Source of the DNA: a virus
Lineage: Duplodnaviria > Heunggongvirae > Uroviricota > Caudoviricetes
IMG/VR virus record: IMGVR_UViG_3300031344_000003
Location: 38,815-102,814 of that record
Strand: one strand, 5' to 3'
DNA: 64,000 nucleotides
The translations under genes were made by a program, and so were the position numbers. Under the pieces are notes generated by a model that worked only from the letters and a program-made list of their open reading frames with translations, made no database searches and was not told the DNA's origin. This document shows, one piece after another, positions 2,530 through 59,787 of the stretch (position 1 is its first letter; each line of letters begins with the position of its first letter).

Positions 2530-3477
2530 ATGTCACTGTGCGGAGGTTGTGGATCTACGTTTGACCCATGGTCATTGAGTGGAAAAGGTAGATTTGTAAG
2601 TCGATGGTGTCGATGTTGTGTTGATGGCACTAAACGTCGTCAAGTGTTTGATTGTTTAGGTTGTCATCAACACATTGATCGTTGGGTTGAAGGTCTTTAT
2701 ACCTCACCAACTTTTTGTAATAAGTCATGTAGAATGAAGTATGAATATGCTAACAATATTAGGCGTAATTTTCTTAATGATAAAACAACGTGGGAATGGT
2801 GGGTCAGTAAATACGGCGAAGAAGAAGCACTTCGTAGAAAAGAGCATCATCGCGACGCAACATCACTAGCTACGTCGGGAGAAAATAATCCGATGTATGG
2901 GCGTCATGATCATGTACACGGTTTGAAACGTTTTGCCAAAGAAAAGACTGGTAAAACACTTGAAGAAGTGCATGGCGTTGATCTAGCAAGGAAAATGCGC
3001 GAGAACAAGTCATTACATGCGCGTGGGTCAAATAATCCTGCGTATGGCAAGGTGTATACGAAAGGTGGAAAGAGCATTAAGGGTTACTACAAAGACAAGT
3101 TTTTTCGTAGTCTACTCGAGTATTCATTCATGAAACATCTTGAGAGTGAGGGGTTATCGCTTAACATTGATGTTGATTATGAGTGCTTCATTGTTCCATA
3201 TGTGTTCAATGGTGCTGATCGGACATATCGCGTTGATTTTTACGTGCCAAGTCGTCATGCAGTGTATGAAGTCAAACCTGCTTATGCTATGAAAGGTGTG
3301 ACGCCCATCAATGAAGCAAAATGGAGTGCAGCACGTGTATACTTCAACCAACGCGGCATACAATTTTATGTAATGTCTGAGTTAGATTTTCCAAAGATCA
3401 TGTTTGATATCGCGAGACAAGACAGCGATGTGACATGGAAAGAAGAGACGTTCAAGTATTTCAAGAGGTCAAAATGA
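2530..3477 (+). CDS. putative homing-endonuclease-like protein: Cys-rich HNH-like N-terminus, NUMOD3-like repeats, C-terminal PD-(D/E)xK-like motif
   Basis: N-terminal CGGCG..CRCC..CLGCHQH..CNKSC. Repeats ENNPMYGRHDHVHG and SNNPAYGKVYTKGG resemble NUMOD3 (N.MYGK.HSEE). C-terminal RVDFYVPSRHAVYEVKP fits D...EVK. Sits in a low-GC island. Confidence 0.45.
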   Translation: MSLCGGCGSTFDPWSLSGKGRFVSRWCRCCVDGTKRRQVFDCLGCHQHIDRWVEGLYTSPTFCNKSCRMKYEYANNIRRNFLNDKTTWEWWVSKYGEEEALRRKEHHRDATSLATSGENNPMYGRHDHVHGLKRFAKEKTGKTLEEVHGVDLARKMRENKSLHARGSNNPAYGKVYTKGGKSIKGYYKDKFFRSLLEYSFMKHLESEGLSLNIDVDYECFIVPYVFNGADRTYRVDFYVPSRHAVYEVKPAYAMKGVTPINEAKWSAARVYFNQRGIQFYVMSELDFPKIMFDIARQDSDVTWKEETFKYFKRSK

Positions 3478-5669: not shown

Positions 5670-6761
5670 TCAGTCAGCCAGTCTTGACAGGTGCTCGTAC
5701 ACCAGCTCATCGATGATCTGCCTGGCCTCGTCAATGGGATCCCACGTCTGCGTGTGATCAAAGCCCAGCTTCTTGACCTTCAACTTGCCGTCGGGGTCAC
5801 GGGTGACCTTGGCATCCTGGCCTGGGTTGAACCGCGTGTTGGTGGTGGGCCCGGGACCGTAGGCCTTGCCCTTGTAGCGGGTGTGGACGGGACGGTTGTT
5901 CTTGCGGCCGTAGATGCGGTAGGTGTCCTTCGACGCGCCGGGGGTACGGACGCTGTTGGCCGGGTCAGCCTTGGGTTTCTTGGCCCAATCGGGCTGTTCT
6001 GCCTTGGGACGGTCATATGTACCAGCGCTGGGTGGCTTGGCCCAATAAGGTTGTTCTGCCTTGGGCGGGGGTGGGCGACCGGGTCGAGGTTTTTCGACAT
6101 AGCCCTTCTTGCGCTTGTCATTGATCTGTGCCTGCGCCACGTGGACCGCCATGCCGTTTGCACTGTAATCCTCGGTAGTGGTTTGACCCGCTGAACCGAT
6201 GCGGCCCCATCGCTTGGTGAGTTTATTACCACTAACGCTGATCTCCCAGAACTTGCTCGATGAACCACCCACGAATTCGAAGTAGCGAGGCTCTCTGAAC
6301 CCGCTCTTTCGTTGCTCCTCCTGCGCTTTCTTCGCCGAGGCCTGGTCATTGTATGTTCCACCGGCCGATGCTGGTGGGGGTGGCTGCTTTTTCCACCATG
6401 CATCGCGCTCGTCGCGTTTGCTGGAATTCCATCCGTCTTGTGGCGGGGGAGGTGCTGCCTTGGGTGGTGCCGCATGGGCCTTCGCCGCCTTGGGATCTTC
6501 ATAACCCTTGAATTCGGCGCCGAACCTGAACTTGTTGGTGGGGTTGAGCAGCCGATCCTTGGCATTGTTGATGTCGACCATCTTGCCGTGGGCGTTGGGA
6601 TCGCCTGCGTTGCGGTCGGGGTGGTGCTGGAGGGCCAACTTCTTCCATGCCGCCTTGATCTGATCCTCCGACGCACCCTTGGGCACCCCGAGGATATCAT
6701 AGGCGTTGAGCAGGGCCTCTTGGATCAGGCGCCTGACCTCGTGGATGTTGAGCCTCATCAC
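5670..6761 (-). CDS. J-domain (DnaJ-like) plus WGR-domain protein with a Pro/Lys-rich repeat region
   Basis: YDILGVPKGASEDQIKAAWKKLALQHHPDRN (HPD motif). KFWEISVSGNKLTKRWGRIGSAGQ fits a WGR domain. Repeats AEQPYWAKPP / AEQPDWAKKP. Confidence 0.7.
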   Translation of the reverse strand: MMRLNIHEVRRLIQEALLNAYDILGVPKGASEDQIKAAWKKLALQHHPDRNAGDPNAHGKMVDINNAKDRLLNPTNKFRFGAEFKGYEDPKAAKAHAAPPKAAPPPPQDGWNSSKRDERDAWWKKQPPPPASAGGTYNDQASAKKAQEEQRKSGFREPRYFEFVGGSSSKFWEISVSGNKLTKRWGRIGSAGQTTTEDYSANGMAVHVAQAQINDKRKKGYVEKPRPGRPPPPKAEQPYWAKPPSAGTYDRPKAEQPDWAKKPKADPANSVRTPGASKDTYRIYGRKNNRPVHTRYKGKAYGPGPTTNTRFNPGQDAKVTRDPDGKLKVKKLGFDHTQTWDPIDEARQIIDELVYEHLSRLAD

Positions 6762-10940: not shown

Positions 10941-11692
10941 TTACTAACACCGTCTCTGACATGCGACTGGAGCTGGCACGTCACCTCGCTGACCAGCGCT
11001 TCACCAGCGTCAACCGTGAGGCGTCAATGACGTCGCTGGTCGGCGCCAAGACGATCGAACTGTGTGGTGTCAACTTCATCGCCGACCAAGAAGTGCTGTT
11101 CGGCAAGCTGAACCACGATTACCTCAAGCGTGAGGAACAGTGGTACCAGTCAATGTCGTGCAGCGTTGATGACTTTCCGGGTGGCGCCCCCGCGGTGTGG
11201 GAGGCAATCGCCTCGAGGGATGGACTGGTCAACTCAAACTACGGCTACCTCATCCGTCACTCCGACAATGGTTATCAGTTCGACCACGTCGTTAACGAGT
11301 TACGAAGGAACCCGGAGTCCCGCCGAGCGGTGATGATCTACACCCGGCCGTCGATGTGGGTCGACTACAATAAGGGTGGGCGCTCTGACTTCGTCTGCAC
11401 CAACACGGTGCAGTACCTGATCCGCGACGGTTCGGTGAGTGCTGTGGTGAATATGCGCTCACAAGATTCACACATCGGATATAAGAACGATCGCGAATGG
11501 CAGCGATTGACGCTCAACGCCGTCGCTGATGCGGTGGGAGTACCAGCGGGCGTGCTGATGTGGCAGGTGGGGTCGCTCCATGTCTACCAACGTGACTTCT
11601 ACCTCGTCGATCACTTCATCAAGACGCGTGAAGTCAACATCACCAAGGCGCAGTACCGTGAACTGTATCCCACGTCGCCGTATAATGAGTGA
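10937..11692 (+). CDS. T4 gp42-type deoxynucleotide (dCMP/dUMP) hydroxymethylase, ThyA superfamily
   Basis: RRAVMIYTRPSMWVDYNKGGRSDFVCTNTVQYLIRDG...VVNMRSQDS...VGSLHVYQRDFYLVDHF is near-identical in motif order to T4 gp42 (RRGIMIYTRPSMQFDYNKDGMSDFMCTNTVQYLIRD...VVNMRSND...VGSLHVYSRHFYLVDHW). Confidence 0.8.
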   Translation: MITNTVSDMRLELARHLADQRFTSVNREASMTSLVGAKTIELCGVNFIADQEVLFGKLNHDYLKREEQWYQSMSCSVDDFPGGAPAVWEAIASRDGLVNSNYGYLIRHSDNGYQFDHVVNELRRNPESRRAVMIYTRPSMWVDYNKGGRSDFVCTNTVQYLIRDGSVSAVVNMRSQDSHIGYKNDREWQRLTLNAVADAVGVPAGVLMWQVGSLHVYQRDFYLVDHFIKTREVNITKAQYRELYPTSPYNE

Positions 11693-11708
11693 AGGAGCAA
11701 CACCGAAA

Positions 11709-12275
11709 ATGACATGCATCGTTGGCGTCGCGAAGGGCAACACGGTCTGGTTGGGCGGCGATAGTGCCGCGACGGGCGGGAACATGAATCGCACCATCAT
11801 CAAGGATCCCAAGGTCTTCGTCCGCGGCGAGCTAGCCTTCGGCGTCTGCGGCCTACCTAAGGTGATGGACGCCGTGGCCCATGGCATCGAAATGCCCCAG
11901 CAACAAGGTGATACAAGCGATCGGACCTTTCTGGTCAATGAGCTGGTGCCGGCCCTCCGCGCGGGGCTCAAGCGCCTTGATTGTACCGCCAAAGACCCGC
12001 AATTCGGCACCGTCTTCATGGGAGGCATGTTGATCGGCTACCGAGGTGTCATCTATGAGTTGCAGGGCAATTTTCAACTGTGTACCTGCGCTGAAGGCTT
12101 TGCCTCGGTCGGCTCGGGCTCGCCCTTCGCCAAGGGCGCCCTCCATGCGTCGAATGGCAAGGGCAGTCCCCGCAAGCGGATCCTCAACGCCCTCGAGTGC
12201 GCGACAAAGGGCAATGCGGGCGTCGCCCCACCCTTTGTCATCGTCAGTGTCAAGCAGAAAAGGAAGTGGCTGTAA
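11709..12275 (+). CDS. HslV-like / proteasome beta-type Ntn hydrolase (paralog 1)
   Basis: Begins MTCIVGVAKGNTVWLGGDSAATGGN (Thr1 after Met removal). FGVCG and GSGSPFAKGAL resemble HslV GFAGG and GSGGPYA. AGGAG RBS. Confidence 0.7.
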   Translation: MTCIVGVAKGNTVWLGGDSAATGGNMNRTIIKDPKVFVRGELAFGVCGLPKVMDAVAHGIEMPQQQGDTSDRTFLVNELVPALRAGLKRLDCTAKDPQFGTVFMGGMLIGYRGVIYELQGNFQLCTCAEGFASVGSGSPFAKGALHASNGKGSPRKRILNALECATKGNAGVAPPFVIVSVKQKRKWL

Positions 12276-12277
12276 GC

Positions 12278-12859
12278 ATGACCTGCGTCGTTGGGTTGGA
12301 AGATCACGGCATCATCTACGTCGGTGCGGACAGTGCGGGCATCGACTCTCACTCGTTGAGCATCGTCGGCCGCGCCGACGAGAAGGTCTTCGTCACCGAT
12401 GACGGCGACTTCATCATGGGCTTTGCGGGCTCTTTCCGCATCGGTCAGCTGCTGCGCTATGCCCTCGTCACCCCTGATCAACCGGGCCGCATGGATGACA
12501 TGGCCTACATGGTCACCGACTTCATCGACGCCGTGCGCGCAATGCAGCACGACAAAGGCGCGCGAGAGAAGAAGGACGAACTTGAACAGCACGAGGCCTC
12601 GTTCATCGTCGGGTATCGAGGTCACCTCTATGTCATCGAGAGCGACTACCAGGTGGGTCGACCCATCGACAACTATGCCGCGATCGGTTGTGGAGCTGAC
12701 ATGGCCTTGGGTGCCATGTACGCGACCAAGAAGCTGAAGATGAAGCCTGAAGAGCGATTGATGTTGGCGCTGCAGGCGGCCGCAGAGTTTAGCGCCGGCG
12801 TCAGGCCACCCTTTCACATCCTGAAGCTCGAACCTCCTGTTGTTGACGAGGCAAAGTAG
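12278..12859 (+). CDS. HslV-like / proteasome beta-type Ntn hydrolase (paralog 2)
   Basis: MTCVVGLEDHGIIYVGADSAG...FIMGFAGS...AIGCGADMALGAMYA. Sits 3 nt after paralog 1. Confidence 0.7.
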   Translation: MTCVVGLEDHGIIYVGADSAGIDSHSLSIVGRADEKVFVTDDGDFIMGFAGSFRIGQLLRYALVTPDQPGRMDDMAYMVTDFIDAVRAMQHDKGAREKKDELEQHEASFIVGYRGHLYVIESDYQVGRPIDNYAAIGCGADMALGAMYATKKLKMKPEERLMLALQAAAEFSAGVRPPFHILKLEPPVVDEAK

Positions 12860-13489: not shown

Positions 13490-14074
13490 ATGGCCGACAC
13501 CAACGCCTCTCTGATCGTCTTCTGTGGGCCCATGATGTCGGGCAAGACGTCGAAGCTGTTGATGGCCCTCGAGCGCCTCAAGTACCAGCACAAGCGCGTT
13601 GCCGTCTTCAAGCCCTCGCTCGACGTCAGGTACAGCGCCAGCGAAATCGTCAGCCACTTGGGTTGGCGGCACCCGGCGACGACGGTGCAAGGCGGCGCCG
13701 ACATCCTCGAGGCACTGGCTGAGGCCGACGTGGCACCTGATGCGATTGCCGTCGACGAGGCCTTCATGATCCCGGGTGTCGCAGGGGTGTTGACGTGGTT
13801 GTACCGCACCGGCGTCGACGTCGTCGTCTCCACGCTCGACATTTCGGCGACGGGCAAGCCCTTTCCCGAGGTCGAGAAGTTGTTGCCGTGGGCCACGCAC
13901 ATCGAGAAGTGCTCGGCCGTCTGCACCCAGTGTGGCCGTGACGCCTTCTACACCCACAAGAAGCAGGTGTCGACCGACGATGAGATTGAAGTCGGTGGTG
14001 CCGAGATGTACGAGCCGCGTTGTAGCCGCCATCACGTCGCGATCGATCTGCGGCCCAAGCTCAATGAGCCATGA
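13490..14074 (+). CDS. tdk: thymidine kinase (TK1 family)
   Basis: LIVFCGPMMSGKTSKLL, VAVFKPSLDVRY, C-terminal zinc motif CTQCG...EPRCSRHH. Confidence 0.85.
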   Translation: MADTNASLIVFCGPMMSGKTSKLLMALERLKYQHKRVAVFKPSLDVRYSASEIVSHLGWRHPATTVQGGADILEALAEADVAPDAIAVDEAFMIPGVAGVLTWLYRTGVDVVVSTLDISATGKPFPEVEKLLPWATHIEKCSAVCTQCGRDAFYTHKKQVSTDDEIEVGGAEMYEPRCSRHHVAIDLRPKLNEP

Positions 14075-14331
14075 AACCCGGCGATCTCATCGCGCGGGTG
14101 TACGAATCTGACGGCGTTACAGCACTTCGTAGAGAAGAATTGTTATCATCGGTGACGGGCGATTACGTGCCCATTGGGGGCATTCACCTGTTGATCAGCT
14201 ATGTCGATGGAATATTGACATGGTTGCCTTTGGGTGCAAACTGCAACGAGTTGTTTAGTGCGGACGAGAACGACACCGAAGCCGGCATTGCAGGCGACGA
14301 CGTCATCTACGTACACGTGAGCCTGACATGA
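14071..14331 (+). CDS. small MKPGDLI-family protein, paralog 2
   Basis: ATGA overlap with tdk. Protein conserved with 9143 and 14328. Confidence 0.5.
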   Translation: MKPGDLIARVYESDGVTALRREELLSSVTGDYVPIGGIHLLISYVDGILTWLPLGANCNELFSADENDTEAGIAGDDVIYVHVSLT

Positions 14332-14618
14332 AGCCAGGCGACCTCATCGAGTGGGCGTATAGGGTTGATAATTGTGTCGTTGTTCACAGTGAATATTTGT
14401 GGTCATCGGTGTTCAATCGTTTTGTGCCCATTGGGGGCATCCACCTGCTGATCGGACGCGCCGATGGGATATTGACGTGGCTGTCTCTACGTGCAGCTCA
14501 CAAGGGCTTGTTGCGAGCCGCCGAGCGCGATGTGCTGTGCCTAAGGGCGGAACGTCCTGCCGGCAAGGGTTGTTACGCACGTGTCTTCGGGCGCGGTGCG
14601 GTGAGGCCGACGGTGTAA
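14328..14618 (+). CDS. small MKPGDLIEW-family protein, paralog 3
   Basis: ATGA overlap. Conserved at protein level with synonymous DNA divergence from paralog 1. A degenerate copy of its 3' segment recurs about 64 bp downstream (14501 vs 14565). Confidence 0.5.
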   Translation: MKPGDLIEWAYRVDNCVVVHSEYLWSSVFNRFVPIGGIHLLIGRADGILTWLSLRAAHKGLLRAAERDVLCLRAERPAGKGCYARVFGRGAVRPTV

Positions 14619-16357: not shown

Positions 16358-16669
16358 GTGATGAAGAAGCTACAGGAAGTCGACGTCATTCGCATCATGC
16401 GCGAGGAATGGTCAGCGAAGGTCAAGACCCTTGCCGAGGAGGTTGACGTCGTCATGAACTCCAAGGTGAAGGATGGTAGCACGGTGGGGGTGCTCTCGCC
16501 GGGATTAAAGATAAAACATAAACAAAGTGGGATTTTGTACACCGTCATGTCCGTCGGCCCACGTGATGTGCTGATCAGGCCGCCCGATGGAGACCCAAAT
16601 GGATCAATTAGTGACACTGCGATGCTCGTCGATGCTGCTGAGCTAGAGCAGTCCTACAAGCTTGACTGA
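16358..16669 (+). CDS. hypothetical protein
   Basis: ORF only. Confidence 0.35.
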   Translation: MMKKLQEVDVIRIMREEWSAKVKTLAEEVDVVMNSKVKDGSTVGVLSPGLKIKHKQSGILYTVMSVGPRDVLIRPPDGDPNGSISDTAMLVDAAELEQSYKLD

Positions 16670-17417
16670 AATTGGGAGATCAATACGAATGGCACAGCAC
16701 GATAAAGAAGACCAGTTGACCGATCTCCTCAAGGGCGTCGACATCAAGGGCATCGTCAATGGCGCGTTGCAGAAGGGTGGTGCTGTCGCTGCCCCCATCG
16801 ACGAGGCCTACGTGGCGCAGCCCAAGCCCTACTCGCAGGTGACGGAGTTCGTGTCCCAGAAGACGAAGGACGCCCACACGTCGCTGTACCAGAAGTACGT
16901 CGAGACGTTGAACCGGGTGTCTGCTGAACTCGACACTGCTTCGAAGTCGGAAGCCAACAGCAACCACTCCGACTTCAGGAGCCTGAAGCTTGATGAGACG
17001 CGGTTGCTGAACGCGGTTTGGCTACATGAACTTTACTTCGCCAACTGCTTTGACGTTCATAGTGAGTGCTACATGAATTCCATGGCGTACATCCGCCTGG
17101 AACGTGACTTCGGCACCTTTGAGGACGCACAGCAGGACATGATGGCATGTGCGCTGGCCTGCGGTGAGGGCTGGATGATCACCGCCTACAACATGTTCCT
17201 CAAACGCTACGTCAACGTCATGGTCACCGACAACAGCCACGACGTGATGTTGGGGCTGTACCCGATCATCGTCATCGACATGCATGCTCACGCGTACTTC
17301 AAGGACTACCTGACTGACAAGAAGAGCTACCTCGTAGCGATGATGCGCCAGCTCAACTGGAACGTCATCGAAGAGCGGTTCACCAAGGCTGAATCGATTG
17401 CCGAGGTGGTCAAGTGA
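16662..17417 (+). CDS. Fe/Mn superoxide dismutase-like protein
   Basis: AVWLHELYF (like WNHTFYW), DFGTFEDAQ, GEGWMITAY and IDMHAHAYFKDYLTDKKSYLVAMMRQLNWNVIEERF parallel SOD DVWEHAYYL...NWENV. Metal-ligand His/Asp positions look retained. Confidence 0.6.
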   Translation: MTEIGRSIRMAQHDKEDQLTDLLKGVDIKGIVNGALQKGGAVAAPIDEAYVAQPKPYSQVTEFVSQKTKDAHTSLYQKYVETLNRVSAELDTASKSEANSNHSDFRSLKLDETRLLNAVWLHELYFANCFDVHSECYMNSMAYIRLERDFGTFEDAQQDMMACALACGEGWMITAYNMFLKRYVNVMVTDNSHDVMLGLYPIIVIDMHAHAYFKDYLTDKKSYLVAMMRQLNWNVIEERFTKAESIAEVVK

Positions 17418-21407: not shown

Positions 21408-22187
21408 ATGGACGGCATCACCACATACGTGCCCAAGACGCAGGTCGTCGCCGCGGTACAATACGAGGTGCGCCTGATGCAGCCTCGCGCCAACATCGAG
21501 GTCGCCAAGCAACTGTGCTATGAAGCGGCAGCGAAAGGCGCCAAGCTCATCGTGCTGCCCGAGCTGTGCATCGGTGGGGCGGTGCTGAGGTCGACCGACG
21601 AGGCTTTCAAGGTATGCCAAGAGGCCGACGGGTGGCAGACGCAGGCCTTCGTGCCCATTGCCCAACGATTCAACGCCCACATTGTCTTCGGCTACACCCA
21701 GTGGTGTGAGGGCAAGTTCTACAACTCGGCGGCGATGGTAGGACCGACAGGGTTGGTGGGTAACTGGCAGAAGCACAATCTTTTCGGCGGGGATAATTTG
21801 TGGGCGCAGCCAAGCGAACAAACACCACCCATCGTGCTGACCCCCGCGGGGCGCGTCGGTGTGCTGATCTGCCGTGACATCAGCAATCGCATGCGCGAGA
21901 GCTACGTCTTTCACCAACCCGGCCAGCGTTTCTACAAGCCCGGTCAGGTCGACGTCATTGCGTGCCCGGTCAATTGGGGCAGCGCCTTCTCATATCCCGC
22001 CAGTGAGTGGGTCGAGTTGGTCGAGCAGACGCGTGCCAACGTCATCGTCAGCAATCGGGTGGGCGAGGAACGCGACATGAGTTACAAGGGAGGCTCGGCG
22101 ATCATTGACCGTGACCGCCGCATCTGGACCAATGGCTCCAGTTTCACAGAAGCTGCCGTCGTGGGCGGCGTGGTGGTGTTGGGATAA
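21408..22187 (+). CDS. carbon-nitrogen hydrolase (nitrilase superfamily)
   Basis: Glu-Lys-Cys triad context: LIVLPELC, QKHNLFG, GVLICRD. Confidence 0.7.
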   Translation: MDGITTYVPKTQVVAAVQYEVRLMQPRANIEVAKQLCYEAAAKGAKLIVLPELCIGGAVLRSTDEAFKVCQEADGWQTQAFVPIAQRFNAHIVFGYTQWCEGKFYNSAAMVGPTGLVGNWQKHNLFGGDNLWAQPSEQTPPIVLTPAGRVGVLICRDISNRMRESYVFHQPGQRFYKPGQVDVIACPVNWGSAFSYPASEWVELVEQTRANVIVSNRVGEERDMSYKGGSAIIDRDRRIWTNGSSFTEAAVVGGVVVLG

Positions 22188-32013: not shown

Positions 32014-32222
32014 ACCGCGGCACCGCCTGCAATGACTGCATCAGGTGTGCAGAGATCAAGGTCGCCGCACGTGGGGTGCGCGCCACTCTTCTTGAACCTG
32101 AGTTGAATCGCATGTTCCTGTGTCCGACGTGTGGCAACAAGCGGTGTCCCAAGGCAACCTACCACGACAACAAGTGCACCGGCTCCAATGCGCCCGGACA
32201 GGAAGGCAGCGACTACAAATGA
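32010..32222 (+). CDS. small Cys-rich zinc-ribbon protein
   Basis: CNDCIRC...CPTCGNKRC. ATGA coupled on both sides. Confidence 0.35.
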   Translation: MNRGTACNDCIRCAEIKVAARGVRATLLEPELNRMFLCPTCGNKRCPKATYHDNKCTGSNAPGQEGSDYK

Positions 32223-33754
32223 GTGCCGATATTGAGTGGGATAAATCGGTGATCTTGAACGCTGACAATGAACATCTCCTTGCTTTGCCAGTCATGTCGT
32301 TCATCAAGGGATTGGTCGAGCGGTACGGCGCTAGCGTTGACACGTGTCTCGATGCCCGCAAGCACCGCAGCATCGTTGACTGCGACTTCGCTCGTTCACC
32401 CGAGGAGCTCGACTCATCATGGCGTGCGGCACCCCCACCTGCCGACCTCATCGATCGCCGCGTCGAGATCACCGGGCCGCCCACCCGCAAGGGCGTCATC
32501 AATGCTCTCAATTCGGGCGCTGACGTCTTCATGGCCGACTTTGAGGACTCATGCTCACCGACGTGGGACAACCTGATCAGTGGTCAGGTCAATCTCTTCA
32601 ATGCCGTTCGTCGCACCATTACCTACGACGATCCTACGACGGGCAAACACTACTCGCTCAATGACAAGCCAGCGGTGTTGATGGTCAGGCCCCGGGGCTG
32701 GCACCTCAAGGAGAAGCACGTCAGGCTCGATGGCAAGCCCGTGCCTGCGGCCCTGGTCGACTTCGGTCTCTATGTCTTCAACAATGCACACGAACTGTTG
32801 TCACGTGGGTCAGGCCCGTATCTGTACCTGCCCAAGATGGAGAGTCACCACGAGGCGAAGCTGTGGGACGATGTCTGTTCCTACGCAGAGCAGGTACTCA
32901 ACCTGCCCATGGGCGCCATTCGCACGACGTGCCTGATCGAGACGCTGCCTGCCGCCTTCTGTATGGACCGCATCATCTACGCCCTCCGCGACCGCATCGT
33001 GGGCCTCAACTGCGGGCGCTGGGACTACATCTTCTCCTTCATCAAGAAGCGCCACGATGACCCGAGCGCGGTGTTACCCGATCGCTCGCTGTTGACGATG
33101 GACAAGGCATTCCTCAACGCCTACGATGAGCTGTTGGTGCAGACGTGCCACAAGCGCGGCATCCACGCGATGGGCGGCATGGCGGCGCAGATCCCGATCA
33201 AGGGCAATGCCGAGGCCAATGACGTCGCCATGGAGAAGGTACACACCGACAAGTTGCGTGAAGCAGCGATGGGCCACGACGGCACTTGGGTCGCCCACCC
33301 GGGTCTGATCCAGATCGCTCGTGAGGCCTTCAAGGACTGCGGGCCCAATCAGATCGATCGGCCACGCACCAATCGACCCATCACTCGCGACGAGCTGTTG
33401 TTGGTGCCGTCAGGTCCCTGCACCGAGGAAGGCCTGCGCCACAACATCAGGGTTGGCATCCAATACCTCGAGGCGTGGTTGAGCGGCAATGGCTGCGTGC
33501 CCCTGTACAACCTGATGGAGGACGCGGCGACGGCCGAGATCTCACGTGCCCAAATATGGCAGCAACTACACCACGGTGCGATCGTCGGCGGGCGCCCACT
33601 GACCTACGTCAGGTTGGCGGACATCATCAGCCAAGAAACAATGCCACTGGTGGGCGCGCGGATCGACGATGCGATCAGGTTGTTCATGAAGGTTGCATGC
33701 GACCCGCACGAGTTCACCGACTTTCTGACGCTGCCCGCCTACGACATGCTGTAA
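32219..33754 (+). CDS. aceB: malate synthase A
   Basis: EITGPPTRKGVINALNSGADVFMADFEDS..PTWDNLISGQVNL, GRWDYIFSFIKK and other signature blocks. Confidence 0.9.
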   Translation: MSADIEWDKSVILNADNEHLLALPVMSFIKGLVERYGASVDTCLDARKHRSIVDCDFARSPEELDSSWRAAPPPADLIDRRVEITGPPTRKGVINALNSGADVFMADFEDSCSPTWDNLISGQVNLFNAVRRTITYDDPTTGKHYSLNDKPAVLMVRPRGWHLKEKHVRLDGKPVPAALVDFGLYVFNNAHELLSRGSGPYLYLPKMESHHEAKLWDDVCSYAEQVLNLPMGAIRTTCLIETLPAAFCMDRIIYALRDRIVGLNCGRWDYIFSFIKKRHDDPSAVLPDRSLLTMDKAFLNAYDELLVQTCHKRGIHAMGGMAAQIPIKGNAEANDVAMEKVHTDKLREAAMGHDGTWVAHPGLIQIAREAFKDCGPNQIDRPRTNRPITRDELLLVPSGPCTEEGLRHNIRVGIQYLEAWLSGNGCVPLYNLMEDAATAEISRAQIWQQLHHGAIVGGRPLTYVRLADIISQETMPLVGARIDDAIRLFMKVACDPHEFTDFLTLPAYDML

Positions 33755-33769: not shown

Positions 33770-35152
33770 ATGGATGACATCAAACGACCCTACACTCCCG
33801 CTGACGTCAAGCGCCTGCAGGGCCGCACCCGAATCGTACACTCGCTGGCCGAGAATGGTGCCGGTCGATTACGTGCTATGATGGTGAACCAATCCGTGCG
33901 GGCGTTGGGAGCGCAGACTGGCAACCAAGCGGTGCAGATGGTCAAGGCAGGATTGAAAGCCATATATGCGTCAGGTTGGCAAGTTGCCGCCGACGCCAAC
34001 ACGTCAGGCCAGACCTACCCAGATCAGTCACTGTACCCCGTCGACAGCGTGCCCACCCTGGTCAGGCGCATCAACAATGCACTGCTCCGTGCCGAGCAGA
34101 TCGATGCGATGGAAGAGGCAGATGGCCAACGCAGCGAGAATCATCGTCACTGGTTAGCGCCCATCGTTGCAGATGCTGAGGCAGGCTTTGGCGGTCACCT
34201 CAACACCTATGAACTTGTCAAGGCGTTGATCGAGGCCGGTGCGGCAGGCATTCACCTCGAGGATCAGCTGTCGAGCGCGAAAAAATGCGGGCATTTAAAT
34301 GGGAAAGTGCTCATCCCGACGTCTCAAGCGATCAACAACCTCGTCGCCGCCCGCCTCGCTGCCGACGTGCTCGAGGTGCCGACGGTCATCATTGCTCGCA
34401 CCGATGCACTGAGTGCGCAATTGATAACCAGTGATATTGACGAACGAGATCGCCAGTTCGTTGCACCAACTAGTCGCACTTCGGAAGGTTTCTACCACCT
34501 GACGGGCGATCCCATGCAGCGGACGATCGCTCGTGGCCTCGCCTATGCGCCCTACGCCGACCTGCTGTGGTTCGAGACGTCAACGCCCGATTTGGCGCAA
34601 GCCAAGCAATTCGCTGAGGCGATCCACGCACAGTTCCCGGGCAAGCAGTTGGCCTTCAATTGTTCGCCGTCGTTCAAGTGGCGCAAGCACCTGACGGACG
34701 ATCAGATCGCCTCGTTTCAGGATGACCTACACGCGATGGGTTATGTCTTCCTCTTTGTAACCCTCGCGGGTTGGCACGCCAATGCCAGCAGCGTCTTCGA
34801 ACTGGCGCTCGATTATCACCAGCGTGGCATGGGTGCCTACGTCAAGTTGCAGGATCGGGAATTCACGCTCGAACAAGCGGGCTACACCGCCGTCAAGCAC
34901 CAGCGCGAAGCCGGCACCTCATACTTCGACGCGATCGTTAGTGTCATCACCGGCGGTACTTCGTCGACGTTAGCGATGAAGGGCTCGACTGAGGCCGAGC
35001 AGTTCTCTGAACATGCAACCCCGTACGGGGTAGGATTACCCTATGGCGAAGAAGTCGAAGAAGAAGCGGGAAAAGACGGTGGTGTGCACGGATGTCGGGC
35101 AAGCGAAGTTCGCGCCCCAGCAGACGTACGCCCTGACGCTGACCCGGTTTGA
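33770..35152 (+). CDS. aceA: isocitrate lyase (C-terminal extent uncertain)
   Basis: [11 protein letters not shown] signature, IARTDA, GFGG. The last 50 aa are atypical and overlap ORF 35043. Confidence 0.85.
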
Positions 35153-45662: not shown

Positions 45663-45841
45663 AAAATACGGGCTTCTTTCTCCGCTTTCTTCGTGGGTTC
45701 ACGTGCAAACACGAGTGGGGCAACGTCGTCGAAATCGTTCACGACGAAGGTGACCTCATTCGCGACTGGCTCGGTTCGAGCTACACCAGACACACGTACA
45801 TCTGCAATCAGTGTGGCAAGGAAAAGACATGGACACGTTGA
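45659..45841 (+). CDS. small zinc-finger protein (GTG start)
   Basis: CKHEWG...CNQCGKE. Confidence 0.3.
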   Translation: MKNTGFFLRFLRGFTCKHEWGNVVEIVHDEGDLIRDWLGSSYTRHTYICNQCGKEKTWTR

Positions 45842-46893
45842 CGAAAGAGCCTGGTTTCACCCGTTCACTGCGGGAAGAGTTGGTGCAGGTGTCGCCCGAC
45901 TTTCAGGTTCGGGTGCACCGGCCGGGGGCGTTGTCCGACGCTGAGTTGATGGCACTGACGATGCGGCACGATGCTGACCCGGCGATGTATCACCCGGAGC
46001 CCGTTAATGCCAGTGGAGTATCGATCCTGGGCGACGTCACCCCTGCCGACGAGGCGATGGGCATGAGCGCGATCAAACGCGGTGAAGTTGCCATGGTGGT
46101 ACTGGCGGGCCGGGCCCCCAAGTTGCTTGCCAAGATCCCGGGCGTTGACACCAGCATGCTGGCGTGGAAGCTGATGCAGGGCGGCGACATGCCCGTGTGG
46201 ATCATGGTGGCGCCTGACCAATTGGCGCCGGCGGAGCACCACATCAAGCAATTGGTGCTGTCACCCAACCTCAGGGGCACCCTCTTCACGCAGTTCGAGG
46301 GGTACCGCCTGACACCCGACAATAGGATGGCATGGGTGGCACCGGGGGTGCCCGACTTGGGCCCGTTGGGCAACGGTGACCTGGGCCCGGCACTGCACGA
46401 GGCAGGCATCCTCGCCGAACACCCCAACGTCAAGTGGGTCTTCATCTGCAACGTCGACAACGTCATGGCGTCGCCGCACGAGGGCCTCATCGGCCTTCAC
46501 ATCAGGCACCGGGCACCCATCACCTGTGAGGTCGTCGACCTGCACCCGGACGATCGGGGCGGCGTGCTGGCTCGCGTCGAGGGTTATCGTCAGCTCGCCG
46601 AGGATTGGCGGTTACCGTCAGGTTTTGCGAAGCCGGGCATGTTCTATAGCACTAACACCATGCTCGTCAACGTCGAGGTGTTGCAGACCCACTTTGCATG
46701 GCGCTGGCACCGCATCCGGCGGGAAGTGGGCAATCGACTGGTGGTGCAGCACGAGCGCTTGCTCCAGCAGTACACCGAGGAATTCGGTGCCGTCTACGTG
46801 CGGGTACCGAGGGACATGCGGTACGTGTCGGCCAAGACGACGGCGGGTCTCGAAGAAGCGGGTAAGGCAATCCTACGAACGAGGCACCCATGA
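45829..46893 (+). CDS. UDP-sugar pyrophosphorylase (UDPGP / UTP-glucose-1-phosphate uridylyltransferase family)
   Basis: PLGNGDLGPALHEAG, VKWVFICNVDNVMA and related blocks. AAGGA RBS before ATG 45829. Confidence 0.55.
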   Translation: MDTLTKEPGFTRSLREELVQVSPDFQVRVHRPGALSDAELMALTMRHDADPAMYHPEPVNASGVSILGDVTPADEAMGMSAIKRGEVAMVVLAGRAPKLLAKIPGVDTSMLAWKLMQGGDMPVWIMVAPDQLAPAEHHIKQLVLSPNLRGTLFTQFEGYRLTPDNRMAWVAPGVPDLGPLGNGDLGPALHEAGILAEHPNVKWVFICNVDNVMASPHEGLIGLHIRHRAPITCEVVDLHPDDRGGVLARVEGYRQLAEDWRLPSGFAKPGMFYSTNTMLVNVEVLQTHFAWRWHRIRREVGNRLVVQHERLLQQYTEEFGAVYVRVPRDMRYVSAKTTAGLEEAGKAILRTRHP

Positions 46894-53329: not shown

Positions 53330-54094
53330 ATGTGCACCCTCATCGTCCTCAGTGAAGCGATCGATGGTTACCCACTCGTCGTCGCCGCCAATCGCGATGA
53401 GCACTATGATCGGCCTTCGCTGCCGCCTGCAATCACCGGTGATGTCATCTGCCCGCGTGATCTCCACAAGGGTGGCACGTGGCTGGGCGTGGCTCGTGGT
53501 GGCTGGTTCGCCGGGTTGACCAACCAAGTCGACGCCCACCAACCGCACCTGCTGGCGTCACGAGGCCACGTCGTTGATGCTTGCCTCAAGGCCGGCAATC
53601 ACCTGGCCGTGGCCCAATACCTGCAGGGGCTTGATCGTGGCGTCTACAACAACTTCAACCTGGTCTTTGGCAGGCCCGGCGCCATTTTTTTGTGCCGTGT
53701 CTGGGGGCTGCACGCGCTGGAGATGCTCGTGGTGCCTGCAGGAACCAGCGTCTTCACCAATGATTGTTGGGACGGGCAGTTTCAGGCCAAGGCCGAGCGC
53801 GCCCGCGAATTGACCACCCACCTCGCCGGCGCAGTACCGATCCACGACGTCAAGAACGCGTTGTTCGCAGTGCTGTCAGACCACCAACACGGTGACGATC
53901 CTCGTCAATCGATGTGCATCCATGCCGACGGTTGGGGCACTCGTAGCACCTCGATCATCACAGTGTCCAATGAGGGGGCCGTGGAGTACTACTATTCAGA
54001 TGGTGCACCGTGTAGGAGTCCCGGTGTTGCATGTGTGGGCGTTCTATCGATTGATGACGAACTCATCACTGACGCAGACCTGAAGAAACCCTGA
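53330..54094 (+). CDS. NRDE/TANGO2 (DUF833) family protein
   Basis: Starts MCTLIVL and contains the VVAANRDEHYDRP NRDE motif. Confidence 0.6.
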   Translation: MCTLIVLSEAIDGYPLVVAANRDEHYDRPSLPPAITGDVICPRDLHKGGTWLGVARGGWFAGLTNQVDAHQPHLLASRGHVVDACLKAGNHLAVAQYLQGLDRGVYNNFNLVFGRPGAIFLCRVWGLHALEMLVVPAGTSVFTNDCWDGQFQAKAERARELTTHLAGAVPIHDVKNALFAVLSDHQHGDDPRQSMCIHADGWGTRSTSIITVSNEGAVEYYYSDGAPCRSPGVACVGVLSIDDELITDADLKKP

Positions 54095-55038: not shown

Positions 55039-56310
55039 ATGGCAGACGACAGTGATTCTAAGTTGATGCACGAATCGACGTCCCTCTATGATGAAGTCAG
55101 GCGTGCCCTGGGCGTCAACCACGTCAAACGAGCCTTTGCGTTGGGCACCGAACTGTTCGGTGCGGCGACTCCATTCCTCGACAAGCCCACGTGGTGGAAT
55201 GCGGCCAAGTCTGTCTTTGCCATGGGCAAAGTGATGGTCGAAGACGTCGAAGTGTACAGCGACGACTACTTCGGGGGTGACGAGTGGACCGAACCCTACA
55301 ATCCTGACTTCAACCAGACGTTGCTCCACGTGCTGCAAAAGTTCCCGTATGAGCGCATCAAGACGGCCGAGGACAACACCTTTGTCAGGTTGGTCACCCT
55401 GCCCAATGGAATCAGGGTGGGATGGACATACACGGGCAAGATGCAGATGGTCGACCACATCTACGTCAAGACCGATCAAGTTGACATGGCGCGCGACTTC
55501 ATCAAGAAGTTGTTGTGGGCTCAATTTGAGGGCAAGTCGCTCGTCATGCGGAAGAATAACCGGGTGATGATGACCGGTGATGAAGCGCGTGTCATCTTTG
55601 AGGTCGACAATGCCTTCGAATCGAAGTTGTCACAGCGCGCGACCGACTACGCCGAGTACCTCAAGAAGCCACTGACGGCAGGGGTGCCGCGGTCGGTGAT
55701 GTTCTATGGCCCACCAGGCACCGGCAAGTCGACGCTGGCGCGGACGATCGTGGAGCTGATGAACCTCAGGTCATTCCGCATCAGGATCGCTGACCTTGGC
55801 GGGCTCGATAACTCCACGTTGTTCGAGGCCATCAACATCTTCGAACCCGACGCCGTCATCCTTGACGACTTTGATCGGGCTAACGGCCAAGCGCAGTTGC
55901 TCGAGACGCTGGAGTTTTTTCAACAGCGCGTCAAGCTGGTCATTGTCACCGTCAACAATAGGATGGAACTTGATGAGGCACTGCTGCGACCGGGACGCAT
56001 TGATGAACTGGTCCTCATTGACAAGATGGACAATGAGGTCGTCAAGCACGTGTTGGGCGACTACGTCGACGGTTTCGACGTGGTGAAGGATTGGCCCATC
56101 GCATTCATTGCAGAATATGTTGTCCGTCGCACCTACCTCTCGGCAGAAGAGGCGGCAACGTCTGTCAAGGAATTGACAGAACGCGTCAATCGTCTCGCAT
56201 GTTATCGTGATGAGAATGACGTGCAGCGGATGGTAAAGTTGATGACCGCGAAGAACAAGAAGGCCAAGCGCAAGACGTTGAATGAGAATGGAGGTAGTGG
56301 CCCTTTTTGA
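55039..56310 (+). CDS. classical-clade AAA+ ATPase (start could be GTG 54943)
   Basis: Walker A FYGPPGTGKSTLA. Walker B ILDDFD. Second region of homology LLRPGRIDE. Confidence 0.75.
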   Translation: MADDSDSKLMHESTSLYDEVRRALGVNHVKRAFALGTELFGAATPFLDKPTWWNAAKSVFAMGKVMVEDVEVYSDDYFGGDEWTEPYNPDFNQTLLHVLQKFPYERIKTAEDNTFVRLVTLPNGIRVGWTYTGKMQMVDHIYVKTDQVDMARDFIKKLLWAQFEGKSLVMRKNNRVMMTGDEARVIFEVDNAFESKLSQRATDYAEYLKKPLTAGVPRSVMFYGPPGTGKSTLARTIVELMNLRSFRIRIADLGGLDNSTLFEAINIFEPDAVILDDFDRANGQAQLLETLEFFQQRVKLVIVTVNNRMELDEALLRPGRIDELVLIDKMDNEVVKHVLGDYVDGFDVVKDWPIAFIAEYVVRRTYLSAEEAATSVKELTERVNRLACYRDENDVQRMVKLMTAKNKKAKRKTLNENGGSGPF

Positions 56311-56576: not shown

Positions 56577-56704
56577 TACTATGCAGTCATGGCTCACTTT
56601 CGACACCCCACCCCTGTAAATCACCATTGTGCCTACGCTCACCACGTGTCAGTGCGGTGTCATTGGGATTCAGGCACCCATTAGTCAGAGGTTGCAGGCT
56701 ACTT

Positions 56705-56962
56705 ATGATCTTGATGGCTACACGCAATCCCGGATTCCCTGACCGTACCGAAAAATACACGGAGTTTCAACTCTATGTGGGTCGCGGTAACGTTGTAGTT
56801 GACTTTACTGAGTGCAAGTTGAGGCGATACGCCGCGGCGGCAATCGACCCACAGCAGAAATTGACGCTGTGTGCCATGATCGACGACTACCTCGCTGGTC
56901 ACATTGCCATCGCGTGGAAGCGCGGCGTGCCGATCTGGCTGAAGGTGACCAAGAACGCCTGA
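56705..56962 (+). CDS. hypothetical small protein upstream of groEL (no GroES similarity seen)
   Basis: ORF only. Confidence 0.3.
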   Translation: MILMATRNPGFPDRTEKYTEFQLYVGRGNVVVDFTECKLRRYAAAAIDPQQKLTLCAMIDDYLAGHIAIAWKRGVPIWLKVTKNA

Positions 56963-56999
56963 TTGAACAATCGGCCTAATCAGGTGTATGATTGAGGCC

Positions 57000-58998: not shown

Positions 58999-59223
58999 GT
59001 GCAGCCCGGTGAATTGGTCGTCAAGCGCGTCAGGTGGAGCGTGGACGCCGAGTGCATGGGGTTTGTCGTCGCCCACGCCGCCGGTGATGTCGATGAGTGT
59101 TTGGTGATGTGGACGATGGGTGACCAACGCATCATGTTCAAGTGGCACCTGACCGACGCGTTGATGGCGGTCGACACGTCTAACGTTGCCGAAGTGAGGG
59201 GCAGATGCGACCTCGGTTCTTGA
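58999..59223 (+). CDS. small PGD(L)-motif protein family member
   Basis: N-terminus MQPGELVV. Confidence 0.3.
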   Translation: MQPGELVVKRVRWSVDAECMGFVVAHAAGDVDECLVMWTMGDQRIMFKWHLTDALMAVDTSNVAEVRGRCDLGS

Positions 59224-59781: not shown

Positions 59782-59787
59782 TTGTCG

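What the first reader, a model, noticed from the sequence alone, without database searches (positions are those of the whole stretch)
11709..12859. Tandem pair of divergent HslV-like Ntn-hydrolase (proteasome beta-type) genes in a phage
Two adjacent paralogs both start M-T-C-(I/V)-V-G, which exposes an N-terminal Thr nucleophile after Met removal. Both retain the HslV GFAG and GSG.P(Y/F)A blocks, yet they share only about 25-30% identity, consistent with a hetero-oligomeric ring. No HslU is adjacent. A classical-clade AAA+ ATPase lies far away at 55039-56310. Phage-encoded proteasome-like proteases are not a standard phage feature and could degrade host defence or regulatory proteins.
Basis: partly seen in the sequence, partly recalled or inferred. 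Interest (0 to 1): 0.65.

Follow-up and report, generated by a model that had tools for sequence, protein, structure and literature searches.

The report
Paired proteasome-like protease genes, huge phage
Two neighbouring genes in an uncultivated ~360 kb phage encode divergent but catalytically intact relatives of the proteasome/HslV protease; this protein family is already known in phages, and the new part is a conserved two-gene version whose function is still unknown.

Summary
Gene A (11709-12275, 188 aa) and gene B (12278-12859, 193 aa) are adjacent, co-oriented paralogs with 28% identity. Both start M-T-C.

Both model confidently (pLDDT 93-95) as proteasome-fold proteins. The closest solved structure is BPH, followed by HslV and 20S beta subunits. 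Thr1, Asp17, the Lys33 equivalent and the Gly47 equivalent are essentially invariant in 120 homologs of each gene.

They are not true HslV, because they score far below the HslV model cut-offs. Both match phrog_1040. B matches the description of the AAH group of Fuchs, Alva and Lupas (2021). That group is widespread as a single-copy gene in phages, prophages, Actinobacteria and alpha-proteobacteria.

A is a basic, monophyletic paralog found only in a clade of huge phages. It usually lies within a few bases upstream of an unusually acidic B.

A mixed A/B ring is plausible but untested. Relatives that carry only A or only B show that the partnership is not obligatory.

The distant AAA+ ATPase belongs to the classical clade. 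It has a gap where the substrate-threading pore loop should be and carries an acidic C-terminal tail with a D-P-F/L motif, so it is a poor candidate partner.

Verdict: a real feature and a modest new variant of a known kind. Interest 0.35.

The parts
11692..11697 (+). AAGGAG ribosome-binding-site-like hexamer, 11 nt upstream of the gene A start codon. It overlaps the last base of the stop codon of the upstream ThyA-like gene.
   Evidence: Read directly from the sequence. Not tested functionally.
11709..12275 (+). Gene A. It encodes 188 aa, is basic (pI 9.5, net charge +8.6) and is a proteasome-fold N-terminal-threonine hydrolase. Key residues, counting Met as 1, are Thr2, Asp18, Lys35, Gly45/Gly48 and the G135-S136-G137 turn. 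It belongs to a monophyletic paralog clade found only in huge-phage contigs.
   Evidence: ORF and translation. phrog_1040, E = 5.5e-21. AF2 model pLDDT 94.6; best PDB fold match is BPH 5ovs/5ovt, TM 0.76-0.79. Catalytic positions invariant in 120 homologs. Monophyly in an NJ tree. Charge.
12260..12266 (+). AAGGAAG ribosome-binding-site-like sequence for gene B. It lies inside the 3' end of gene A, 11 nt upstream of the B start codon, which suggests translational coupling.
   Evidence: Read directly from the sequence. The distance from the A stop to the B start is -29 to +6 nt in 13 of 15 distinct A-B arrangements in relatives. No promoter-like or terminator-like site lies between the genes.
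12278..12859 (+). Gene B. It encodes 193 aa, is acidic (pI 5.0, net charge -10) and is a proteasome-fold N-terminal-threonine hydrolase of the widespread phage/bacterial single-copy type, inferred to be the AAH group. Key residues are Thr2, Asp18, Lys36, Gly48 and the G137-C138-G139 turn, where Cys replaces the proteasome Ser129 equivalent.
   Evidence: ORF. phrog_1040, E = 2.5e-22. BPH is the best PDB sequence hit, E = 1.9e-6. AF2 model pLDDT 93.0; best fold match is BPH 5ovs, TM 0.79-0.82. 43-53% identity to single-copy genes in Actinobacteria, alpha-proteobacteria, Firmicutes and Chloroflexi. 51% identity to Moorella phage MTATph1. Residue conservation.

Best explanation
Genes A and B are co-transcribed and probably translationally coupled. 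They encode two catalytically competent N-terminal-threonine peptidase subunits of the proteasome/HslV/BPH superfamily.

B is the huge-phage copy of a widespread, normally single-copy phage and bacterial protein, most probably the AAH group of Fuchs et al. 2021. A is an old, divergent, basic paralog restricted to one clade of huge phages.

Inferred mechanism, not shown:
1. The initiator Met is removed, exposing Thr1.
2. The subunits assemble into barrel-shaped double rings, like BPH (14-mer) or HslV (12-mer), with the active sites facing inward.
3. The particle acts in the infected cell without a dedicated phage-encoded unfoldase, on unfolded proteins or peptides that are still unidentified.

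In this clade I favour a mixed A/B particle, because a basic A sits next to an unusually acidic B. That step is the weakest, at roughly 0.4 taken alone.
For: Fold and active site:
- AF2 models have pLDDT 93.0 and 94.6. The top PDB fold hits are BPH (TM 0.76-0.82), then HslV, then 20S beta subunits.
- Thr1 is present in 118/120 B homologs and 120/120 A homologs. Asp17 is present in 119-120/120. The Lys33 and Gly47 equivalents are present in 120/120 in both families.
- There is no propeptide: 112/120 B and 119/120 A homologs start M-T.
- For BPH, Met removal and Thr1 reactivity with epoxomicin were shown experimentally (PMC5777263).

Family placement:
- Both genes match phrog_1040.
- B is 43-53% identical to single-copy genes in Frankia, Actinoplanes, Streptomyces, Mesorhizobium and Paenibacillus.
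- Phage head-module markers flank the B-type gene in the Firmicutes loci. None was detected beside it in the Frankia, Actinoplanes or Actinomadura loci. This broadly matches the published description of AAH.

The pair:
- A-B adjacency occurs in 28 fetched loci, about 15 of them distinct, on 90-370 kb contigs with conserved synteny.
- The gap between A and B is -29 to +6 nt in 13 of 15 arrangements.
- A is basic (median pI 8.5). Partnered B proteins are more acidic than unpartnered ones: median net charge -8.5 versus -2.0, Mann-Whitney p = 2e-8, not corrected for phylogeny.

No dedicated unfoldase:
- No HslU gene is in the window.
- No gene family recurs next to the family across about 230 loci. 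Fuchs et al. reached the same conclusion.
Against: - No assembly or activity was tested here.
- The closest solved homolog, BPH, was inert on standard peptides and casein in vitro. Proteolysis and its substrates therefore remain assumptions.
- A occurs without an adjacent B in relatives that keep the same ThyA-A-TK synteny (L087, L098).
- B is single-copy in all 80 bacterial loci and in every isolated phage hit. Neither subunit therefore needs the other.
- A and B net charges do not co-vary across 15 pairs (rho = -0.15, p = 0.58).
- Tight gene spacing is general in these genomes. For example, B overlaps the TK gene in L005.
- Pfam's Proteasome model is matched only below its gathering score.
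Confidence: 0.55

Rival explanations
1. A and B form two separate homo-oligomeric proteases with different substrate preferences, for example a basic versus an acidic inner cavity. They are co-expressed but do not assemble together.
For: A-only and B-only genomes exist. Paralog number varies among huge phages: one, two (L035, two B-type copies 65% identical) or three (L097, 23-32% identical). Salmonella phage pSal-SNUABM-04 carries two non-adjacent HslV-like genes. There is no charge co-variation between partners. BPH and HslV are homo-oligomers.
Against: Partnered B proteins are systematically more acidic than unpartnered ones, and A is basic. A is almost always immediately upstream of B when both are present.
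Confidence: 0.3
2. The pair is the proteolytic core of an ATP-dependent protease. Its unfoldase would be either the phage AAA+ ATPase at 55039-56310 or a hijacked host unfoldase such as HslU.
For: The AAA+ ATPase belongs to the classical clade, like the proteasomal ATPases, with PDB matches to p97/Cdc48/FtsH at E about 1e-16. Its orthologs (46-90% identity) were found only on contigs of the clade that carries A. The window also encodes GroEL and a DnaJ-domain protein, so the phage invests in proteostasis.
Against: The AAA+ gene lies 42 kb away. Co-occurrence cannot be separated from shared ancestry, and the IMG/VR scan was truncated. In the HMMER alignment to Cdc48/p97 the ATPase has a 4-5 residue gap exactly at pore loop 1, so the aromatic threading residue appears to be missing, and its Walker B motif is D-D rather than D-E. 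Its C-terminal tails are acidic with a D-P-[F/L] motif; to my knowledge this resembles the tails of SSB and T7 replication proteins and not the HbYX docking motif. A and B fail the HslV models by more than 110 bits. Fuchs et al. found no co-occurring AAA+ for any of these homologs.
Confidence: 0.12
3. The family acts in or around head assembly. It could be a late-expressed accessory peptidase or a capsid-associated protein, rather than a cytoplasmic housekeeping protease.
For: In small phages and prophages the B-type gene sits inside the head module, directly next to the large terminase or the portal gene. Examples are L070, L073, L076, L081 and L136 (after TerL), L045, L071 and L074 (before the portal), and L021 and L032 (after the portal). 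PHROG scans of L071 and L076 confirmed TerL, portal, head maturation protease and major head protein, and in L032 the head maturation protease. At least 31 of 148 viral loci and 8 of 80 bacterial loci have head-module markers within 5 kb.
Against: A canonical head maturation protease (phrog_80) is present in the three modules scanned, so the protein does not replace it. In this window and in other large phages the gene lies among nucleotide-metabolism or auxiliary genes. No phage context was detected at most actinobacterial loci (PMC8665760).
Confidence: 0.1
4. A and B are not proteases. They could be a specific ligase or transpeptidase like connectase, or an amidohydrolase acting on a small molecule linked to the surrounding nucleotide-metabolism block.
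For: The genes are embedded between a ThyA-like gene and thymidine kinase, near dCMP deaminase. Connectase shows that the proteasome fold can be a ligase. BPH shows no protease activity in vitro.
Against: The nucleotide-metabolism context is specific to this clade; elsewhere the neighbours are head genes or an HD phosphohydrolase. The connectase signature insertion between strands S3 and S4 is not seen: the models are compact and match BPH and HslV end to end.
Confidence: 0.05

Closest known systems
[quoted passage not shown]
   Same: Both are compact subunits of about 180-190 aa with no propeptide and no C-terminal S12/H5 elements. Both have the Thr1/Asp17/Lys33/Gly47 residues and no partner AAA+. 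Both are found in many phages, in Actinobacteria and alpha-proteobacteria, and in phage-derived regions of Firmicutes. The distribution of gene B matches this.
   Different: Membership is inferred from distribution and architecture. The AAH reference sequence (WP_035979212) could not be compared. Gene A is a separate, basic, monophyletic branch (mean 33% identity to B-type proteins) seen only in huge phages. The A-B tandem is not mentioned in that paper: the words 'tandem' and 'paralog' do not occur in it.
BPH (Betaproteobacteria proteasome homolog; PDB 5ovs, 5ovt, 5ovu)
   Same: BPH is the nearest solved structure for both proteins (TM 0.76-0.82) and the best PDB sequence hit. It starts Met-Thr, has the same catalytic residues and has no partner unfoldase.
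   Different: Sequence identity is only 16-23%. BPH is a bacterial homo-tetradecamer with a long, highly acidic pore loop. The oligomeric state here is unknown. Gene A is basic overall. Gene B has Cys where BPH has Ser139.
HslV (ClpQ) of the HslVU protease
   Same: Same fold and catalytic residues, and a similar size. IMG, UniRef and PHROGs all label this family 'HslV'.
   Different: The genes score 13-23 bits against cut-offs of 137-158 bits for the HslV equivalog models. Identity to E. coli HslV is about 20%. No HslU gene is present.
Duplicated beta subunits of 20S proteasomes, for example the S. acidocaldarius 20S proteasome (PDB 6z46) and eukaryotic beta1-7
   Same: Divergent paralogs of a ring-forming Ntn peptidase encoded in one genome. 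This is the precedent for paralogs sharing one ring.
   Different: There is no alpha-type subunit here. Both paralogs keep Thr1 and neither has an N-terminal extension. Co-assembly has not been shown.
Two HslV-like genes in Salmonella jumbo phage pSal-SNUABM-04 (ORF 1 and ORF 116; PMC7823757)
   Same: A jumbo phage with more than one HslV-like gene and no HslU.
   Different: Those genes are not adjacent. Their relationship to types A and B was not examined here.

Membership tests
Proteasome/HslV superfamily (Ntn hydrolase, Pfam PF00227, MEROPS T1) | Alpha-beta-beta-alpha sandwich fold of proteasome subunits | tested here: met
   AF2 models have pLDDT 93.0 and 94.6. More than 1000 PDB chains match at E <= 0.001, led by BPH, HslV and 20S beta subunits.
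Proteasome/HslV superfamily (Ntn hydrolase, Pfam PF00227, MEROPS T1) | N-terminal Thr (or Ser) nucleophile plus Asp17, Lys33 and the Gly47 oxyanion hole | tested here: met
   Thr at position 2 (the residue after the initiator Met), Asp18, Lys35/36 and Gly45-48 are present in 118-120 of 120 homologs of each gene. HMMER alignments to BPH place them on Thr1, Lys37 and Ser139 of BPH. Met removal itself is not testable here.
Proteasome/HslV superfamily (Ntn hydrolase, Pfam PF00227, MEROPS T1) | Score at or above Pfam's gathering cut-off (22.4 bits) | tested here: not met
   13.2 bits for A and 20.1 bits for B. Some close homologs of B do carry a precomputed PF00227 hit.
HslV proper (NCBIfam TIGR03692 / NF003964) | Equivalog model score at or above the cut-off (157.75 / 137 bits) | tested here: not met
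   A scores 13.3 / 16.2 bits and B scores 22.7 / 23.2 bits.
HslV proper (NCBIfam TIGR03692 / NF003964) | A partner HslU ATPase encoded with it | tested here: not met
   No HslU in the 64 kb window and none in the 10 kb flanks of relatives.
HslV proper (NCBIfam TIGR03692 / NF003964) | Dodecamer made of two hexameric rings | not testable with these tools
PHROGs phrog_1040 'peptidase HslV family' | Significant match to the family profile | tested here: met
   E = 5.5e-21 for A and 2.5e-22 for B, covering residues 1-186 of each.
AAH (Fuchs et al. 2021, group I) | Compact subunit without propeptide, insertions or C-terminal S12/H5 elements | tested here: met
   M-T start in 112/120 B and 119/120 A homologs. 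The models end shortly after the last beta strand and show no extra domain.
AAH (Fuchs et al. 2021, group I) | Distribution: abundant in Actinobacteria and alpha-proteobacteria, present in many phages, and phage-borne in Firmicutes | tested here: met
   For B: the 80 best bacterial loci are dominated by Frankia, Actinoplanes, Streptomyces and Actinomadura, with Mesorhizobium, Methylobacterium, Paenibacillus and Brevibacillus also present. Head-module markers flank the Firmicutes loci; none was detected at the Frankia, Actinoplanes or Actinomadura loci. For A: not met, because it was found only in huge-phage contigs.
AAH (Fuchs et al. 2021, group I) | Clusters by sequence with the AAH reference (WP_035979212) | not tested
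The accession did not appear among the members of the six bacterial clusters looked up.
BPH | Tetradecameric double ring with a long acidic pore loop; bacterial, in stress-regulated operons | tested here: inconclusive
   BPH is the best structural match, but at 16-23% identity. Oligomeric state is unknown. The genes are phage genes. A is basic overall.
Two-gene alpha/beta 20S proteasome | One inactive alpha-type subunit with an N-terminal gating extension plus one active beta-type subunit | tested here: not met
   Both A and B keep Thr1 and start directly at M-T.

The most novel reading that the evidence does not exclude
A and B co-assemble into a charge-complementary, two-subunit proteasome-like particle specific to one clade of huge soil and sediment phages. 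This would be the first hetero-oligomeric proteasome-family protease encoded by a virus. It would have arisen by the same route of duplicating a homomeric ring subunit that produced multi-subunit cellular proteasomes. Relatives with three paralogs, such as L097, would represent a further step along that route.
Probability: 0.3. Interest if true: 0.6.

Novelty: new variant of a known kind. Interest (0 to 1): 0.35.

Why it matters
No proteasome homolog of the orphan groups (BPH, AAH, PPH) has a known substrate or physiological role. I found no experimental work on the phage copies in the searchable literature.

A conserved pair of divergent, oppositely charged, catalytically intact paralogs offers a concrete handle on the problem. 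The two proteins are small and probably easy to express. They can be tested for co-assembly, for inhibitor labelling and for activity.

If they do form a mixed ring, they would be a compact viral model for how homomeric protease rings become heteromeric.

In practical terms, the result corrects the idea that such genes are unusual in phages. The wider sequence family comprises thousands of 50%-identity clusters and is a named PHROG.

Tried and rejected
- DNA-level searches of the locus and of window 1-25000 against isolated phages found nothing. The clade has no cultured representative in that collection.
- A single-sequence scan of IMG/VR for relatives of the AAA+ ATPase found nothing.
- I clustered all ORFs from about 230 loci to look for a universal neighbour. 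The largest clusters were antisense or low-complexity artefacts of GC-rich DNA, and only clade-specific synteny emerged.
- I considered that the protein replaces the prohead protease in small phages. I rejected this because a canonical head maturation protease (phrog_80) is present in the three modules I scanned.
- I looked for compensatory charge co-variation between A and B across 15 pairs. There was none.
- I tried to tie B to the AAH reference accession through exact cluster look-ups. The accession was not among the listed members.
- PADLOC defence models gave no hit for A, B or the TANGO2-like protein.
- The afdb50 fold library was unavailable.
- Multimer prediction was not possible.
Full report
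**What is in the sequence.** Two + strand ORFs fill the stated interval. Gene A runs 11709-12275 (188 aa, MTCIVGVAKGN...). Gene B runs 12278-12859 (193 aa, MTCVVGLEDHG...). They are 2 nt apart. Each is preceded by a purine-rich Shine-Dalgarno-like sequence 11 nt upstream: AAGGAG at 11692-11697 and AAGGAAG at 12260-12266. No promoter-like or terminator-like site lies between them. Public gene calls on the source contigs give the same two products. A and B align end to end at 28% identity, E = 1e-27. One slip needs correcting: the literal 'GFAG' block is only in B (A has FGVCG), and 'GSG.PFA' is only in A (B has GCGADMA). The equivalent glycine positions are conserved in both.

**What the proteins are.**
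- Pfam's Proteasome model is hit only below threshold: 13.2 and 20.1 bits against a cut-off of 22.4.
- The NCBIfam HslV equivalogs are missed by more than 110 bits.
- Both proteins match PHROG phrog_1040 'peptidase HslV family', at E = 5.5e-21 and 2.5e-22.
- The best PDB sequence match is BPH, the Betaproteobacteria proteasome homolog, at E = 1.9e-6 for B.
- AlphaFold2 models built on 150-sequence alignments are confident: pLDDT 93.0 for B and 94.6 for A.
- Foldseek ranks BPH first (TM 0.76-0.82), then HslV, then archaeal, bacterial and eukaryotic 20S beta subunits.

**The catalytic residues.** In 120 homologs of each gene the catalytic set is essentially invariant:
- Thr directly after the initiator Met: 118/120 in B and 120/120 in A.
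- Asp17: 119-120/120.
- The Lys33 equivalent: 120/120.
- The Gly47 equivalent: 120/120.
- The Ser129 equivalent: Ser in A (117/120) but Cys in B (96/120).
- No propeptide: 112/120 B and 119/120 A homologs begin M-T.

For BPH, Met removal and covalent modification of Thr1 by epoxomicin were shown experimentally, yet no peptidase activity was detected in vitro (PMC5777263).

**Where the window comes from.** The exact A and B proteins occur on metagenomic contigs of 359-361 kb, from JGI sample 3300031240 and ENA ERZ27245402. Contigs of 325 kb and 369 kb carry the same gene order: epimerase, ThyA-like, A, B, thymidine kinase, CCA/poly(A) polymerase, dCMP deaminase, superoxide dismutase. Relatives of 90-370 kb are filed as viral genomes in IMG/VR. 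Nothing in the isolated-phage collection matches at the DNA level. I take the element to be an uncultivated huge phage. That is an inference from its relatives and from PHROG content. No virion gene lies in the window itself.

**How the family is distributed.** The wider sequence family is large and already known.
- A single-sequence scan of 1.84 billion cluster representatives with gene A finds 4,897 clusters at E <= 0.001 and 2,431 at E <= 1e-10. The weaker matches will include distant proteasome-family members.
- tblastn finds one copy in each of 64 (A as query) or 78 (B as query) isolated phage records. These are annotated 'peptidase HslV family', 'proteasome subunit' or 'nucleophile aminohydrolase'.
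- B reaches 51% identity to Moorella phage MTATph1 and 43% to Geobacillus virus E3. A reaches at most 32% to any isolate.
- BFVD holds 33 viral models of this fold at E <= 0.001.
- Fuchs, Alva and Lupas (2021, PMC8665760) described phage-borne proteasome homologs. These are PPH (about 140 aa) and AAH and CPH (full length), all in 'group I' radiating from BPH. They reported no partner AAA+ and no informative gene context.

**Placing B.** B-type genes at 43-53% identity occur as single copies in 80 bacterial species genomes. These are dominated by Frankia, Actinoplanes, Streptomyces and Actinomadura, with Mesorhizobium, Methylobacterium, Paenibacillus, Brevibacillus and Dehalococcoidia also present. 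Phage head genes flank the gene in the Firmicutes loci. None was detected at the Frankia, Actinoplanes or Actinomadura loci. This broadly matches the published description of AAH. I therefore file B as AAH-type by inference. The AAH reference sequence could not be compared directly.

**What is particular here: the A paralog.**
- A-type proteins form one monophyletic clade in a neighbour-joining tree: 22 distinct sequences with no B-type protein inside the clade.
- Mean identity is 55% within A, 50% within B and 33% between A and B.
- A is not nested inside the B proteins it partners with. The split is therefore old, or A evolved quickly after it.
- In IMG/VR only about 20 contigs carry a true A-type gene, and all belong to the same huge-phage lineage.
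- In the global representative set only 11 clusters reach E <= 1e-30.

**Gene arrangements across about 155 fetched phage loci** (several loci are duplicate fetches of the same contig):

| Arrangement | Loci | Examples |
|---|---|---|
| A-B | 28 (about 15 distinct) | window, L005, L006 |
| B alone | 116 | most IMG/VR loci |
| A alone | 6 | L087, L092, L098/L099, L101 |
| B-B | 4 loci from 2 contigs (the two copies 65% identical) | L035, L064 |
| B-A...B (three paralogs 23-32% identical) | 1 | L097 |

In 13 of 15 distinct A-B arrangements the A stop and the B start are -29 to +6 nt apart, often as ATGA or TGATGA overlaps. In L087 and L098 the ThyA-A-TK order is kept but B is absent. A can therefore exist without an adjacent B.

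**Evidence bearing on a mixed ring.**
- In favour: A proteins are basic (median pI 8.5; the window protein has pI 9.5 and net charge +8.6). B proteins that have an A partner are markedly more acidic than unpartnered ones: median net charge -8.5 against -2.0, Mann-Whitney p = 2e-8, not corrected for phylogeny. The genes are almost always adjacent and coupled.
- Against: A-only and B-only genomes exist. A and B charges do not co-vary across the 15 pairs (rho = -0.15). Tight gene spacing is general in these genomes.

I rate co-assembly at about 0.4 and separate homomers at about 0.3.

**The AAA+ ATPase at 55039-56310.**
- It is a single-domain, classical-clade AAA protein. It matches PF00004, and its best PDB matches are p97, Cdc48, NSF and FtsH at E about 1e-16. 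It has an uncharacterised 200-residue N-terminal region.
- It is highly conserved, at 53-89% identity across 120 metagenomic homologs. In IMG/VR its orthologs were found only on contigs of the lineage that carries A. That scan was truncated, and the pattern cannot be separated from shared ancestry.
- In the HMMER alignments to Cdc48 D2 and p97 D1 the phage protein has a 4-5 residue gap exactly where pore loop 1 sits. This removes the aromatic residue used to thread substrates. Its Walker B motif reads D-D rather than D-E.
- Its C-terminal tails are acidic, with a recurrent D-P-[F/L] motif; the window protein ends in ...GGSGPF. To my knowledge this resembles the interaction tails of SSB and T7 replication proteins, not the HbYX motif of proteasome activators. 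That comparison rests on my own knowledge and was not tested.

I therefore consider it an unlikely unfoldase partner (about 0.1).

**Gene context as a clue to function.** No gene family accompanies the proteasome homolog across lineages. Three lineage-specific contexts appear.
- In this huge-phage clade the genes sit in a nucleotide-metabolism block.
- In another set of jumbo phages that carry only B, an HD-domain phosphohydrolase lies directly upstream.
- In small phages and prophages the gene lies inside the head module, immediately next to the large terminase or the portal gene. A canonical head maturation protease and the major head protein follow.

The third context suggests late expression and a possible link to head assembly. 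The gene does not replace the prohead protease. In larger isolated phages the neighbours are unrelated auxiliary genes.

**Conclusion.** The finding is real and its core reading is right: divergent proteasome-type Ntn hydrolases with intact active sites, in a phage. The family is already catalogued and widespread. The genes are not HslV in the strict sense. The proposed AAA+ partnership is not supported. The new element is a conserved, tightly coupled pair of an ordinary acidic AAH-type subunit and a basic, huge-phage-specific paralog. Further paralog expansions occur in related huge phages. Whether the two proteins share one ring, and what any of these viral proteasome homologs degrade, remains open and can be tested experimentally.

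Noticed in passing
window 32120-33754 and 33770-35152 (+): Adjacent genes for malate synthase (PF01274, E = 1e-102, plus the MS_C domain) and isocitrate lyase (PF00463, E = 1e-101). Together they make a complete glyoxylate shunt encoded by the putative huge phage.
   Followed up: no
window 56988-58649 (+), with the small ORF 56627-56962 upstream: A phage-encoded GroEL chaperonin (phrog_5725, E = 6e-146). A similar small ORF of about 100 aa precedes GroEL in the relatives L092 and L101 as well. In those two relatives the A-type proteasome homolog sits next to this GroEL module instead of in the ThyA/TK block.
   Followed up: partly
window 53330-54094 (+): A TANGO2 family protein (PF05742, E = 2.9e-29) starting M-C-T. 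By my own reading this is another Ntn-type fold with an N-terminal Cys, the NRDE motif family. It lies just upstream of the AAA+ gene.
   Followed up: partly
window 55039-56310 (+): A classical-clade AAA+ ATPase with a gap at pore loop 1, a D-D Walker B motif and an acidic C-terminal tail carrying a D-P-[F/L] motif that resembles SSB-type interaction tails. It is highly conserved in the clade, and its N-terminal 200 residues are unassigned.
   Followed up: partly
window 5670-6761 (-): A protein combining DnaJ and WGR domains, according to precomputed Pfam marks on the identical contig. It is one of the few minus-strand genes in this region.
   Followed up: no
window 14071-14331 and 14328-14618 (+); possibly also 58999-59781: Tandem small paralogs starting MKPGDLI... 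lie between the thymidine kinase and the CCA/poly(A) polymerase genes. Relatives carry the same pair (cluster 147 in L097 and L089). Similar 'PGDL' small ORFs appear near 59000-59800.
   Followed up: no
L070, L073, L076, L081, L136, L045, L071, L074, L021, L032 (small phage and prophage loci): The single-copy B-type proteasome homolog sits inside the head-morphogenesis module, immediately beside the large terminase or the portal gene. Where scanned with PHROGs (L071, L076, L032) a canonical head maturation protease lies in the same module.
   Followed up: partly
L015-L028, L033, L056 (jumbo-phage loci with B only): An HD-domain metal-dependent phosphohydrolase (phrog_990, E = 2e-23) is encoded directly upstream of the B-type gene in 18 loci.
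   Followed up: partly
L097 5415-9185; L035 5983-7361: Further paralog expansions. One 324 kb phage contig carries three proteasome-like genes (order B, A, then a third copy) that are 23-32% identical to each other. Another lineage has a recent B-B tandem at 65% identity, with lysine-rich C-terminal tails.
   Followed up: partly
window 16662-17417, 21408-22187, 2530-3477, 45811-46893: Other auxiliary genes: Fe/Mn superoxide dismutase, a CN-hydrolase (nitrilase family), a protein with a Tn7 TnsA-like endonuclease N domain, and a weak UDP-glucose pyrophosphorylase-like protein.
   Followed up: no
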